NCBI GenBank assembly: GCA_964016885.1
Contig: OZ024746.1
Coordinates: 80,352,001 to 80,416,000, forward strand
From: Eledone cirrhosa
Taxonomy: Eukaryota
Direction of reading: 5' to 3'
Length of the DNA stretch: 64,000 nucleotides
In this document: piece by piece, positions 23,752-62,100 of the stretch
Layout of the letters: every line of letters starts with the position of its first letter
How positions within the stretch are numbered: the stretch's first letter is position 1
Notes under the pieces: model-generated
What the model saw: the letters and a program-made list of their open reading frames with translations, nothing else
Database searches by the model: none
Told to the model about the DNA's origin: nothing
Program-made: the position numbers and the translations under genes

Positions 23752-23952
23752 TAACGAAGGAAATGTGGTAAGGAACCAGGTGGACCATAACGCACCAAAG
23801 TACTCAATACTTGAGGTAGTAGAGTGGGTAATAGGAACGAGTAAGACCCCGACAGCTGAGCTCAAGCCGTTTCGACGGCTAATTCTGGACTGTGTCCAGA
23901 ATTAGCCGTCGAAACGGCTTGAGCTCAGCTGTCGGGGTCTTACTCGTTCCTA
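23752..23952 (-). mobile_element. Asymmetric hairpin element (family X), copy 1
   Basis: 59-bp perfect arms 23832-23890 and 23894-23952, loop TGT, 80-bp unpaired tail; (TA)n flanks. Confidence 0.85.
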
Positions 23953-24817
23953 TATATATATATATATATATATATATATATATATATATATATATATATA
24001 TATATATATATATATACATATATATATATATATATACATATATGTATATATATATATATATAGGAACGAGTAAGACCCCGACAGCTGAGCTCAAGCCGTT
24101 TCGACGGCTAATTCTGGACACAGTCCAGAATTAGCCGTATATATATATATGTACTTACTAACATAGTAGTGTTTTCGCAATCAGGTGATACCGCACTGTA
24201 CTGGGACGATTTGATTCGAGACACGTATCCGCTCTCTCATTGAAATCAGGAATATTTCCTTGAATCATAATGAACTCTTTAGATATACCGATACACAAAC
24301 AAAACAACATGGATTATCAATAAAATTAATAAACTAATTGTATTAATAGCACGCGCGTTTGGTGTGTGTATGTATGTATGTGAATGTGTTTGTGAATATG
24401 TTTGTGTGATTGTGCATGTGTGCTTGTATGTTATGTCTGTGTGTTAGTATGTGTCTGTATGCATGTGTAAATAGGAAAGTTTTCTTCTCAAATATTTTCT
24501 ATTAAAGACATCTGTTTTTCTTCTCTTTGTGCAGAAAAGGAGATCGATCCAACTAGTTTCAGCTTTTGTGTAACAACACTTGAAACTAATCAAATCAATC
24601 CCACAAACAAAATCTATAGTGCAACAATCTTGTTTACTTTTCACATTGCGGCTACATAGGGTGTTTGATAAACACATACACATGCACACACACACATACA
24701 CACACACATACACACACACACACACACACACACACACACACACACACACACACACACACACATACATATACACGTGCATACGAGTAAGATCTACCTTGTA
24801 TGTATGTATTATGTGAG

Positions 24818-25090
24818 GAAGGCATATCGCTTAGTGGTTAGGATGTTCAGCTCATGAGCATAGCATTGTAAGTTCGATTCCCGGCGCCGCATTGTGCTCT
24901 TGAGCAAGATACTTTATCTTACATTGCTCCAGTTCATTTATCAGGCAGGCAATAAATGAGTTGAACGTGTGACTCAATCGACCAACCTTGTCATTCAATG
25001 TGTCAAACCGAATCTTCCTGAGAACTAACTACGTTAAATGTACGAGTGTCAGTGGAATGCTCAGCCACTTGTACGTTAATTTCACGAGCG
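24818..25090 (+). mobile_element. tRNA-derived CORE-like SINE family B (representative copy)
   Basis: GCTTAGTGGTTAGG A-box, GTTCGATTCCC B-box, CORE-like TTGAGCAAGATACTTTATCTTACATTGCTCC. Other copies at about 8430-8620(-), 13797-13890(+), 33355-33620(-), 42655-42730(+), 47040-47290(-), 47535-47615(+). Confidence 0.82.
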
Positions 25091-25375
25091 AAACACACAC
25101 ACATATATATATTCATTTTATTAAGGCTAAATAGTGAGTCTTGTTACTCTGGAGTTTCACCTGTTTATCAAGGGGTCACCTGATTACCCAAGACTCACTA
25201 TTTAGCCTTAATAAAATGAATATTAAAACCTGAACTCTTTTTTTCTCTCAGCAGTCAACCACATACGGATATATATATATATATATATATATATATATAT
25301 ATATATATATATATACATAGAGAGAGAGAGAGAGAGAGAGAGAGAGAGAGAGAGAGAGAGAGAGAGAGAGAGATT

Positions 25376-25632
25376 GTTATACTTTGGGAGGGTCATTAAA
25401 AACACACGCACTTGTTGGTTTTCACTTCAATTTATCATAAATTTCTGGTTGGCCGGTTGGTTGGTTGGTTCGTTTGATAACCGGATGGTTGTTTATATAT
25501 TGTCAAAGCTCTTTCGTCACACATTCTAAGACCTCCTCAGTGACTAGGTTTTTATTTTGTGCCTCTCCTTTGTTCTGTTCTGTCCTACACCATCCTGTTT
25601 TTGTGTATTGTGTGCTTCAAATTCAAAATCGA
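25376..25632 (-). mobile_element. pLTR-like repeat (family Y) with HHR-like motif
   Basis: Minus strand GTCA-CTGAGGA-G-GTC...GAC-GAAA-GAGC-TT-TGAC at ~25502-25544; ends ATGACCCTCCCAAAGTATAACAA. Confidence 0.62.
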
Positions 25633-59300: not shown

Positions 59301-60151
59301 GCTCCACCCGGGGTCACAGCGTCTGACAAGCCAAAACACTGTCCAGTGGGGTAAGAGACGAGAGACAAAACATTAATTTATAGCAATCAAGTACACATAT
59401 ATATCTTTCACATACCTTCAGACACACTCTCTCTTTCTCTTTCTCTTTCTCTTTCTCTCTCTCTTTCTCTCTCTCTCTCTCCCTCTCACGCCCCCTCTCT
59501 ATCTATCTATCTATTTATCTATCTATCTCAGGAATCCTCTGACAATCACATTGTTTCCATCGATCATTCGATAATTCACATTTATATGATTATTTAGCAG
59601 TTATCTGAGTGTATAGAGTAGGCAATGGGCAACCTTTATTGAGCAGTAGGCCACATCCTATGTGGCTCATCATGAAGCAGGCCACACTACTAAACAATTC
59701 AAGGCAATTTTGAAATTAGGCGTGCTATTCAGAAAGCCAAATGGGCTGCGGTTTGTTTCTATGTAATAATTGTGTGTGTGTGTGTGTGTGTGTGTGTGTG
59801 TGTACATACGGGTGTCTGCCACAGCTGTTTCTATGTAAAAATTGGTAAAAATTGTGTATGTAATATATATATATATATATATATATATATATATATATAT
59901 ATATATATATATATATATATATATATATATATATATATATATATTCAAGGCAATTTTGATATATATATATATATATATATATTCAAGGCAATTTTGATAT
60001 ATATATATATATATATATATATATATACATACATAGAAACAGCTGTGGCAGACACCCGTATGTACACACACACACACACACATATATATATATATATATA
60101 CACACACACACACACACACACACATATATATATATATATATATATATATAT

Positions 60152-60900
60152 AGGGCGGAAGAACTCATAAGAGTCAACGGCCATCCAAAAGTGTGTAAAT
60201 ATGTATATACACATGTACATATGTATGTACATGTGTATATACATGGGTGCATGTGTATGTATATGCGCGGGGACATAGAAATAGTCAGGCTGGACACCCG
60301 ATCGTGCGGTTAAACCACTGGAAGTGAAGGACCCCTAGCCTTTGTCAGGACATTCTTCTAGGAGAAGACAACTCAGGAAACTGGGATAACTCCGATATAA
60401 AACCTGCGGCTCAGTAGTTACTGATGATGTTGATCTTTTCTTCTTTTCAGGTTATAGCTACTGTCGCTCAGAGTGTGGGATTGGCTCAGTGCACAGTCCT
60501 TCTTCACTTTAAAAAATATCTCCACACAGGCATTGCACGATAGAATTAATTAATAATTATTAATAATGGTATATCGTGCAATGGCCATACTCGATAACGA
60601 GGCGGCAGCCATCATGTATGTATGTATGTATGTATGTATGTATGTATGTATGTATGTATGTATGTATGTATGTATGTATGTATGTATGCTTTATATCTGG
60701 AGATCTCTCTGCACTTGTCGTCACATGGTACCATGGGCCCAGCACTATGTGTCTATAATTGTCACAAGTGTAGTGTTTGTACCAGAGTTTTCAAGTCGCT
60801 GGCTGGACTAAAAAGTCAGACTCGTTCAGCGCATCGGTAGGGGTTCTCCTACATGGATATAAAGTAGTGGCCGTACTCGAAAACGAGTTGGCAGCCACCA
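60152..60900 (+). mobile_element. RTE-related pieces: putative 5' UTR-like segment plus two 3' ends with (TATG)n tails
   Basis: 60725-60900 matches 13030-13205; 60570-60615 is another 3' tip; parts of 60160-60370 match the reverse complement of 12880-12955. Confidence 0.55.
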
Positions 60901-61892
60901 TGTATGTATGTATGTATGTATGTGTGTATATATGTATGTGTGTATGTATGTACATACAAGTGTCTGACGTGTTTGAGGTGTGACGATAAATTATACTTCT
61001 CACTGAATACATCACTGAATACATTTCTTGTATTAGGTGAAAATTATGAAATGATTGCAAAGTAATCTGTATGGTATAGCTTTTAAATATTTACAGATTG
61101 ATTTACAGACAACTTATATAAAAAGAAATTTATATAGAGAGAAATATACATATATCTATCTATATCTATCTATCTATCTATTTATCTATCTATCTCTCTA
61201 TCTATCTAGCTAGCTATCTATCTAGCTATCTATATATATATATAGAGAGAGAGAGATAGAGGGGGTAGATACAGGTTTTATATATATTCTCTCTCTCTCT
61301 CTCTATATATATATATATATATATAGAGAGAGAGAGAGAGAGAGAGCGAGAGAGAGAGAGAGACATGTATTCGGAAATAAAATATATATATATAGATATA
61401 TATAGAAGGATATATACAGATATATATATATACAGTGGCATATATACAGACATCCCACTTGTACATCAAAGAGAAAAGTTATAGCCCTCAGATATCTCGG
61501 TGGTATAATTTATCAAATGTCTTTTATATAGGTGTTTTGTTTAGTTCTTTGTGAGTTCATAAATACCTATATAAGTTTATTTATGTATATACGTGTGTGT
61601 GTGTGTGTGTGTGTGTGTGTGTGTGTGTGTGTGTGTGTGTGTGTGTGTGTGTGTGTGTGTGTGTGTGTGTGTGTGTGTGTGTGTGTGTGTGTGTGTGTGT
61701 GTGTGTGTATGTGTGTGTGTGTGGAGATGCGTGCGTGAGTCTGTGTGCGTATGTTTGTCTCTTCTGTCTCGTTCTCTTTCTCTCTCTTTCTTTCTTTCTC
61801 TCTATCTCTTTCTCTCTCTCTCGTTCTCCTTCTCTCTCTCACTCTCTCTCTCTCTCTCCATATATATATATATATATATATATATATATATA

Positions 61893-62100
61893 TAACTAAG
61901 GAATTGTGGTAAGGAACCAGATGGACCATAACGCACCAGAGTACTCAATACTTAGGGTAGTAGAGTGGGAAATAGGAAAAAGTATGACCCCGACGGCAGA
62001 GCTCAAGCCGTTTCAACGGCTATTTCTGGACTAAAAAAAAAGTCCAGAAATAGCCGTCGAAACGGCTTGAGCTCTGCCGTCGGAGTCATACTTTTTCCTA
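61893..62100 (-). mobile_element. Asymmetric hairpin element (family X), copy 4
   Basis: Same tail and hairpin; A-rich apex; (TA)n flanks. Confidence 0.85.

What the first reader, a model, noticed from the sequence alone, without database searches (positions are those of the whole stretch)
23752..62100. Family X: four ~200 bp asymmetric hairpin elements whose two arms co-vary within each copy
Seen at 23752-23952, 25719-25946, 43101-43290 and 61893-62100, all in (TA)n. Each has a ~55-60 bp stem plus an ~80 bp unpaired tail, and the short arm always stops at the same CCTA/TAGG dinucleotide step. Copy-specific variants appear on both arms: GACAGCTGAG/CTCAGCTGTC in copy 1, GACGGCTGAG/CTCAGCCGTC in copy 2, GACGGCAGAG/CTCTGCCGTC and TATTTCTGG/CCAGAAATA in copy 4, CCGG in copy 3. 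The apex differs each time (TGT, A-run/T-run, A, A-run). Inference: the short arm is re-synthesised from the long arm at each insertion (cDNA snap-back priming, then joining to the target through TA microhomology), or arms are homogenised afterwards. Stem-GAAA-CGGC-TT resembles the 3' half of a minimal HHR whose CUGANGA side was overwritten by the fold-back, but the U is not conserved in copy 3.
Basis: partly seen in the sequence, partly recalled or inferred. Interest (0 to 1): 0.75.

Follow-up and report, generated by a model that had tools for sequence, protein, structure and literature searches.

The report
Fold-back Penelope stumps in TA repeats
The four lopsided DNA hairpins are real copies of a very abundant repeat that sits in TA microsatellites, and they are likely short leftover insertions of the end of a Penelope-like jumping gene, laid down in a mirror-copy-plus-tail pattern already described for that class, so the finding is mostly ordinary.

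Summary
Four copies sit in (TA)n, each with 54-60 bp arms, a different apex and an 80-nt one-sided tail. Each arm is closest to its own partner (8 of 8), and the short arm always ends at the same TA.

The layout is not special to this family. Six other unrelated elements in the window share it, including a Hydra-type Penelope-like element (RT, GIY-YIG, three hammerheads) beside copy 1. Inverted 5'-truncated copies, one-sided tails, (TA)n targeting and self-priming are all published for Penelope-like elements (PLEs).

The fixed TA is best read as the inner of two reverse-transcription start sites bounding the tail. The arms would be two cDNAs of one donor RNA joined head to head; snap-back is a close rival.

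- The 'copy-specific' variants are common family polymorphisms in reads.
- Copy 3's arms differ at 9 of 55 positions.
- A fifth partial copy re-copies copy 1's apex.
- The hammerhead-like 3' half has a longer stem III and GUC; no CUGANGA was found.

No parent, ORF or intact ribozyme of this family was found. Verdict: new member of a known kind.

The parts
23752..23952 (-). Family X copy 1: tail 23752-23831, long arm 23832-23890, apex TGT, short arm 23894-23952; arms identical
24061..24138 (-). Extra inverted partial copy of copy 1 (short arm, apex and about 16 nt of long arm) across the (TA)n tract 23951-24062; 100% identical over 78 nt
25719..25946 (+). Family X copy 2: short arm, A11/T17 apex, long arm to 25866, tail 25867-25946; 1 arm mismatch
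43101..43290 (+). Family X copy 3, second subfamily: shorter arms, 1-nt apex at 43155, arms differ at 9 of 55 positions, tail 43211-43290
   Evidence: subfamily also in loose ends at 23837
61893..62100 (-). Family X copy 4: tail 61893-61972, long arm, A8 apex, short arm to 62100; 2 arm mismatches
23851..23873 (-). Hammerhead-like 3' half in copy 1's long arm: GAAA, 5-bp stem III with 9-nt loop, GUC; 17 nt from the inner TA and 97 nt from the tail end; no CUGANGA upstream
23832..23833 (.). Inner TA step that bounds the tail; its mirror is where the short arm meets (TA)n; likely the inner RT start site (inferred)
   Evidence: PMC11167929
36651..36694 (-). Decayed single-arm fragment without tail, running into (TA)n
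30420..30452 (+). Decayed, internally deleted single-arm fragment between (TA)n tracts
18757..23715 (-). Neighbouring Hydra-type Penelope-like element, the comparator, not shown to be the parent: broken RT plus GIY-YIG frame at about 22465-20253, pLTRs 22602-23392 and 18757-19532, inverted arm 23410-23715 identical to the 5' pLTR region, 89-nt tail, complete type I hammerheads at 22700(-), 18855(-) and 23528(+)
   Evidence: motifs as defined in PMC8557442 section 11

Best explanation
The four hairpins are copies of one abundant repeat in (TA)n tracts, and each is likely the stump of one insertion of the 3' end of a Penelope-like retroelement, whose two arms would be two cDNA copies of the same donor RNA joined head to head. 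Shown: the anatomy, arms pairing by locus, the fixed inner TA, the 80-nt tail, and the same layout in a neighbouring RT/GIY-YIG element and five other families. Inferred steps: (1) a PLE endonuclease-RT supplied in trans cuts both strands of a (TA)n tract; (2) the two TA-ended DNA ends prime on two UA sites 80 nt apart at the 3' end of an uncleaved RNA, one at the tail end (long arm) and one inside (short arm); (3) both cDNAs usually stop near the same A/U-rich stretch about 55-60 nt upstream, sometimes adding A's; (4) the RT jumps from one cDNA end onto the other, which makes the palindrome, a variable apex and the second strands. I put the PLE-type origin at about 0.85, and this particular way of making the arms at about two thirds of that.
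For: Layout: seven unrelated families in the window (ten ends examined, hand-picked) have a short arm ending at a TA that the long arm also carries. Six of the seven then have a 49-89 nt tail ending in (TA)n; TA frequency outside tracts is 0.084. Complex 18-mers beside (TA)n have an inverted partner within 6 kb in 22 of 89 cases, against 18 of 600 random ones away from tracts (counts not independent). Two of these families carry complete type I hammerheads upstream of the inner TA: all 5 found in the window. One carries an RT/GIY-YIG frame with the Hydra-clade marks RWR, DKT, CxCX5C, CxxC and CxH. In that neighbour the tail is on the inverted arm and the long direct unit ends at the inner TA, which two fixed start sites explain in either order. 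PMC11167929 shows in vitro that a PLE protein cuts and extends both target strands, starts RT at two sites bounding the tail, and uses uncleaved RNA. Published Hydra consensuses end 29-47 nt (10 of 24) or 87-152 nt (11 of 24) from the ribozyme cut site; family X ends 17-19 and 97-100 nt from its GUC. Copy 2's A11/T17 apex offers no pairing for an intramolecular primer but fits two ends with separate A-runs (inference). In run X1, 5 of the 15 joints shown (44 in all) link a piece cut inside the tail to a near-full short arm, so that arm has no template in its own copy (table 5). Single arms without a tail exist, as do tail-only reads ending at the inner TA (348 reads).
Against: No parent was found. 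There is no ORF link, no hit in viral, metagenome or genome contigs, and no whole genome to search. No CUGANGA lies in any copy or in the 30 letters shown past the apex. A GAAA-stem-UH half alone is common: 100 rows among 901 GAAA in the window. Its stem III (5 bp, 9-nt loop) is unlike the 3-4 bp, 1-3 nt loop of published Hydra ribozymes, shows no compensatory change, and loses to a competing hairpin in folding. The 17-19 nt inner distance is below the published 29-47 nt. Near-perfect apices in 4 of 4 copies fit snap-back at least as simply. The lopsided joints and tail-only reads could be later deletions or PCR skipping, and were called at 80% likeness from 1-2 contigs each. The partial copy at 24061-24138 re-copies copy 1's apex, and two apex forms have high summed depth (26,597 in 23 contigs; 10,800 in 16, table 4), so some joined forms may be amplified as units. 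Copy 3's arms differ at 9 of 55 positions while its tail differs from copy 2's at only 5 of 80.
Confidence: 0.55

Rival explanations
1. Same PLE-type origin, but one cDNA starts at the tail end, folds back on itself, copies itself outward and joins the target at the first suitable TA.
For: Apices of 1-8 nt in 4 of 4 copies, and a 1-nt apex in the unrelated element at 58144-58218. Identical or near-identical arms in three copies. The non-folded continuation in run X4 holds an imperfect inverted match to the arm that could seed a fold (table 7; one contig). PMC3846280 reads PLE junction palindromes as self-priming (passages).
Against: It needs a separate reason for the fixed stop. The neighbouring PLE has the tail on the inverted arm. 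The A11/T17 and 1-nt apices give little or no primer pairing. Joints with a short arm but no long arm exist in run X1.
Confidence: 0.25
2. The donors are themselves palindromes: a non-autonomous element carrying both arms is copied whole, or the arms are homogenised after insertion, so the arms co-vary by subfamily and not by insertion.
For: The variants are family-wide polymorphisms (table 3). The copy at 24061-24138 shows that a joined apex can be re-copied. Two apex forms have high summed depth (table 4). Copy 3 has an identical inner 21 nt and divergent outer arms.
Against: Four copies have four apices, including copies 1 and 2 that differ at only 2-3 arm and 3 tail positions. A non-folded form exists (746 reads in X23, 91 contigs in X1, 1 in X4). 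Many different joints were seen (44, 15 shown).
Confidence: 0.13
3. A MITE-like DNA transposon with terminal inverted repeats that targets (TA)n.
For: Short, non-coding, very abundant, with inverted repeats, and in TA tracts.
Against: The inverted repeat is terminal on one side only, with an 80-nt tail beyond it on the other. The centre varies, and short arms do not cluster with short arms. Elements with the same layout here carry hammerheads and an RT.
Confidence: 0.04
4. Sequencing or assembly fold-back artefact.
For: The window has many perfect inverted repeats, and copy 1 with its extra copy is 100% symmetric.
Against: The same boundary occurs in four loci. Arm mismatches in copies 2-4 are mostly C>T or G>A changes, as expected of ageing. 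Contigs of run X1 cross the apex (X1 may be the window's own sample). The family is held by 13 runs in 10 studies (only X1, X4 and X5 of these were laid).
Confidence: 0.02

Closest known systems
Insertion units of EN+ Penelope-like elements: inverted 5'-truncated copy plus one-sided 'tail' (PMC3846280, passages; PMC8557442, passages and section 11)
   Same: Head-to-head inverted copy, palindromic junction, tail at one end only, microsatellite target, complex extra copies.
   Different: Only about 140 nt of donor sequence, no ORF or direct pLTR pair; the tail is 80 nt against the published 30-40 bp; no complete hammerhead.
Hydra clade of PLEs (PMC8557442; includes Hydra-1_Obim)
   Same: (TA)n target; two classes of 3' end roughly 70-100 nt apart downstream of the ribozyme site; a Hydra-type element with the same arm-and-tail layout abuts copy 1.
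   Different: No sequence link between family X and the neighbour, and no hit to X for the short X motifs searched in the paper's supplement (line breaks can hide a match). X's stem III is longer and its CUGANGA is missing.
Poseidon of Anolis (PAc), two internal RT start sites (PMC11167929, parts 1-2 of 4 read)
   Same: Two fixed ends bounding a tail, downstream of the ribozyme site; the template extends 5' past the would-be cut site.
   Different: PAc starts without homology to the target, whereas here each end is a TA step in a TA tract. PAc is autonomous with an active ribozyme.
Non-LTR retrozymes (PMC7229834, passages; bioRxiv 10.64898/2026.07.22.740005, part 1 of 5)
   Same: Small, non-coding, abundant, thought to be PLE-dependent; palindromic letters in loop III.
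   Different: Retrozymes are head-to-tail tandem repeats with a full type I hammerhead in each unit; X is a solo head-to-head unit without the 5' core.
Non-autonomous Chlamys elements such as MRC1 (PMC8557442, passage)
   Same: Non-coding PLE derivatives that keep a 3' end.
   Different: They form pLTRs and head-to-tail arrays and match a known autonomous partner; X's partner is unidentified.

Membership tests
PLE-type truncated insertion unit (inverted copy plus tail) | 5'-truncated inverted copy joined head to head | tested here: met
   4 of 4 copies
PLE-type truncated insertion unit (inverted copy plus tail) | Tail at one end only, with fixed boundaries | tested here: met
   80 nt in 4 of 4; longer than the published 30-40 bp
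PLE-type truncated insertion unit (inverted copy plus tail) | Sequence continuity with a full-length PLE (RT plus GIY-YIG) | tested here: inconclusive
   A non-folded continuation exists but only 30 letters are shown; no protein match; no genome held; collections blank
PLE-type truncated insertion unit (inverted copy plus tail) | Target-site duplication | not testable with these tools
   Flanks are (TA)n on both sides
Autonomous Hydra-clade PLE | Single ORF with RWK, DKT, CxCX5C and C-terminal GIY-YIG | tested here: not met
   No ORF in family X; met only by the neighbour at 20253-22465
Autonomous Hydra-clade PLE | Insertion into (TA)n | tested here: met
   4 of 4 copies
Autonomous Hydra-clade PLE | Canonical hammerhead near the 3' end | tested here: not met
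   0 of the 5 complete hammerheads in the window lie in X
Type I hammerhead ribozyme | CUGANGA core after stem I | tested here: not met
   Absent from all copies and from the 30 letters shown past the apex
Type I hammerhead ribozyme | GAAA, stem III and NUH triplet | tested here: met
   GAAA in 7 of 8 arms, GUC in 7 of 8 arms (4 of 4 long arms), 20 of 20 stem cells paired; the pattern alone is common (100 rows)
Type I hammerhead ribozyme | Compensatory changes in the stems | tested here: inconclusive
   No two-sided change among 4 sequences
Type I hammerhead ribozyme | Self-cleavage | not testable with these tools
   Needs an assay; no Rfam hammerhead match among the 32 hits for 22450-24200, where even the neighbour's complete ribozymes were missed
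Non-LTR retrozyme | Head-to-tail tandem units, each with a full type I hammerhead | tested here: not met
   Solo head-to-head units
MITE | Terminal inverted repeats at both ends around a conserved interior | tested here: not met
   One arm ends 80 nt inside the element; the centre varies

The most novel reading that the evidence does not exclude
Family X is a dedicated, extremely abundant non-autonomous parasite of (TA)n-targeting Penelope-like elements that has shed its ribozyme core, and its copies record the unknown second half of PLE integration: two TA-ended target strands prime at two UA sites on one RNA and the RT jumps end-to-end between the two cDNAs, making palindrome, tail and second strands in one step across many unrelated families.
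Probability: 0.3. Interest if true: 0.6.

Novelty: new member of a known kind. Interest (0 to 1): 0.3.

Why it matters
How PLEs make their inverted copies and second strands is still open; PMC8557442 and PMC11167929 both say so. A short family with very many copies, fixed outer ends and variable junctions is a good natural data set for telling snap-back from two-primer synthesis. Recognising these stumps would also help repeat annotation, since they could be filed as MITEs, SINEs or unknown repeats (inference). The layout itself is known, and earlier notes of this scan report it in other genomes, so the finding is not a new kind of element.

Tried and rejected
- No whole genome was held, so the genome-wide arm tree could not be built.
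- Rfam: the best 150 of 466 rows for the window were miRNA-type and other hairpin matches below their gathering scores; none of 32 for 22450-24200 was a hammerhead.
- Exact-pattern scans found nothing: metagenome contigs twice, viral contigs, genome contigs.
- A motif of the non-folded continuation is not in the window.
- Earlier notes: none by sequence, by place or by the first word set.
- No RNA holder was listed.
- The piles of read ends at 23884 and 23900 in run X23 fall on AATT in both arms and were rejected as biology: the run is a RAD library, and an AATT-cutting enzyme is recalled, not from a call.
- Summed contig depth was not used as a copy number.
- Pfam gave 0 families for the 3 neighbour ORF pieces and 2 other ORFs, and only sub-threshold GIY-YIG hits in 2 of 5 relatives. 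The search for longer homologues gave none.
- An ATG-started frame in the tail matches none of 155 fetched relatives.
- A polyadenylated antisense RNA priming on itself was considered for the A/T apices; the tail-first strand shows no AATAAA before the apex, so it was left as a minor variant of snap-back.
- Literature searches found no description of this family. The O. vulgaris repeat library behind PMC13282606 and that paper's supplement were not read and may hold it; subscription papers were not searched.
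Full report
OBSERVATION. Each has a short arm, an apex, a long arm and a tail of exactly 80 nt; the tails differ from each other at 3-7 positions. Arms of one copy differ at 0, 1, 9 and 2 positions, against 2-14 between same-side arms of different copies. All 8 arms have their own partner as nearest neighbour, and the true short-long pairing is the best of 24. 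The short arm meets (TA)n at the same TA in all four. The apices are TGT, A11/T17, A and A8. Extra pieces: an exact inverted copy of copy 1's short arm, apex and about 16 more bases at 24061-24138, and two decayed single arms at 36651-36694 and about 30420-30452.

ABUNDANCE AND VARIATION. No genome was held. Thirteen public runs in 10 studies hold sampled words of copy 1; I laid three of them (X1, X4, X5) and one added raw-read run (X23). In X23, 22,613 of 12,467,656 records lay on the 209-base reference; in X1, 16,500 contigs did. The 'copy-specific' letters are common alleles: about 16% of X23 reads carry copy 1's A at 23854, 43% carry T>A at 23857, and 35% and 32% carry G or T at 23844 (40 of 99 rows shown). 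Loose ends show a second subfamily like copy 3 (2,372 reads), tail-only molecules ending at the inner TA (348 reads), and a non-folded continuation beyond the apex (746 reads in X23, 91 contigs in X1, 1 in X4; 17 of 424 loose-end rows shown). That continuation has no CUGANGA in the 30 letters shown. Of 44 joints, 15 were shown; 5 of them link a piece cut inside the tail to a near-full short arm. They rest on 1-2 contigs each at 80% likeness, and later deletion could also make them. Two apex forms have high summed depth, which may mean recurrent junctions or amplified palindromes.

CONTEXT. Copy 1 abuts a 5-kb element at 18757-23715 across one (TA)n tract. It has a broken RT/GIY-YIG frame on the minus strand, two pLTRs, an inverted arm identical to the 5' pLTR region over 306 nt or more, and three complete type I hammerheads. 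Its protein carries RWR, DKT, CxCX5C, CxxC and CxH, the marks of the Hydra clade in PMC8557442 (section 11). It has 4,290 relatives at E up to 0.001, and full-length relatives cover both pieces. Named relatives are from Argonauta and Octopus, so the host is probably an octopod (inference). This element has X's layout: one end stops at an inner TA 49 nt after the ribozyme cut site, the other runs on for 89 nt more. So does an unrelated element at 50366-51711 with two complete hammerheads (36 and 101 nt), and so do elements at 54710-56082, 58144-58305, 25113-25268 and, without a closing TA tract within 600 nt, 30174-30365. I picked these by hand from the self-comparison. As a rough control, 22 of 89 complex 18-mers beside (TA)n have an inverted partner within 6 kb, against 18 of 600 random ones, 5 of 26 beside CA/TG tracts and 0 of 15 beside GA/TC tracts; the counts are not independent. 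Family X shares no sequence with the neighbour, so the neighbour is a comparator, not a shown parent.

THE HAMMERHEAD QUESTION. On the strand that runs apex to tail, X reads GAAA, a 5-bp stem with a 9-nt loop holding a palindromic hexamer, then GUC. GUC stands in 4 of 4 long arms and 3 of 4 short arms; copy 2's long arm has lost the G of GAAA. This sits upstream of the inner TA, in the same orientation as the complete ribozymes of the two sibling families, 17-19 and 97-100 nt from the two ends. Published Hydra consensuses end 29-47 nt (10 of 24) or 87-152 nt (11 of 24) from their cut site. I computed this from the supplement table and left out one 5'-located and one antisense row. Against a ribozyme: no CUGANGA; a half pattern that gives 100 rows among 901 GAAA in this window; a stem III longer than those of published Hydra ribozymes; no compensatory change; and a competing hairpin that wins in folding. 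X is therefore not filed as a hammerhead; a ribozyme remnant is a lead.

MECHANISM. Best reading: a PLE protein in trans cuts both strands of (TA)n; the two TA ends prime at two UA sites 80 nt apart on an uncleaved RNA; both cDNAs stop near the same A/U-rich stretch; and the RT jumps from one cDNA end to the other. The two-strand cut, two starts bounding the tail and use of uncleaved RNA are shown in vitro for the anole Poseidon element (PMC11167929, parts 1-2 of 4). Their application here, the stop and the jump are my inference. This model explains the fixed TA in either order of arms, the variable apex including A11/T17, single arms and lopsided joints. Palindromic donors or later homogenisation would explain subfamily-level co-variation, the re-copied apex at 24061-24138 and copy 3's mixed arms, but not four apices in four copies. 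A MITE and an artefact fit poorly. Four copies cannot settle the choice among the first three.

COMPARISON AND NOVELTY. Inverted 5'-truncated copies, one-sided tails and (TA)n targeting are described for PLEs (PMC8557442, passages; PMC3846280). Non-autonomous PLE derivatives are described too (PMC8557442 on MRC1; bioRxiv 10.64898/2026.07.22.740005, part 1 of 5; PMC7229834, passages). O. vulgaris has 31 recently active Penelope-like families (PMC13282606, part 1 of 3 and passages; its supplement and repeat library were not read). Earlier notes of this scan describe similar stumps in other genomes (unchecked, not used as support). X meets the structural marks of a PLE-type truncated insertion. 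It fails the marks of an autonomous Hydra element, a hammerhead, a retrozyme and a MITE, and its link to a coding parent is untested. What is modestly new is the family itself, tails of about 50-90 nt in these (TA)n-targeting families against the published 30-40 bp, and a possible loss of the ribozyme core. Seven literature searches found no description of the family.

VERDICT. Real, retrotransposon-type and mostly ordinary: new member of a known kind, interest 0.3. Its value is as a high-copy test bed for how PLE inverted arms are made.

Noticed in passing
window 18757-23715: Near full-length Hydra-type Penelope-like element on the minus strand with two pLTRs, an inverted arm, an 89-nt tail and three minimal hammerheads; its ORF is broken near 21311-21350 and 20916.
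   Followed up: yes
window 50366-51711: Inverted pair of ends with two complete type I hammerheads (50513 minus, 51629 plus) whose short stem III resembles the published Hydra-1_oBim one; microsatellite-rich centre; 65-nt tail.
   Followed up: partly
window 54710-56082: Large inverted element (456-nt perfect arms) with nested hairpins at its centre and a 59-nt tail; related ends at about 25377 and 51731-54619.
   Followed up: partly
window 58144-58305, 25113-25268, 29908-30365, 35904-36147, 57518-57665: Further unrelated short-arm/long-arm elements, mostly beside (TA)n; the one at 25113 holds a GAAAC-stem-GUA half on the minus strand, and some fold at an internal (TA)n.
   Followed up: partly
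window 24061-24138: Exact inverted re-copy of copy 1's junction across a (TA)n tract; a joined apex has served as template at least once, by DNA fold-back at (TA)n or by a later RNA.
   Followed up: partly
window 23753-23788 (minus strand): The tail ends in an ATG-started open frame of 12 codons, open in all four copies, that runs off the element; 5 of 8 listed read variants there are synonymous (weak; mostly transitions). It may be the start of the parent's ORF; no protein match.
   Followed up: partly
window 15387-15616: Tandem array of about 49-nt palindromic units separated by (TA)n.
   Followed up: no
window 39219-40136, 40559-41257, 14205-14720, 32876-33397: Fragments that look like C-terminal parts of non-LTR retrotransposon ORFs (by eye, recalled; Pfam gave nothing for the two of them that were scanned).
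   Followed up: no
window 24808-25090, 2289-2503, 34670-34860, 37367-37553, 48344-48738: Dispersed SINE-like repeats of two families; tRNA-like heads judged by eye.
   Followed up: no
window 8624-9442: Minisatellite with 44-, 76- and 88-nt periods.
   Followed up: no
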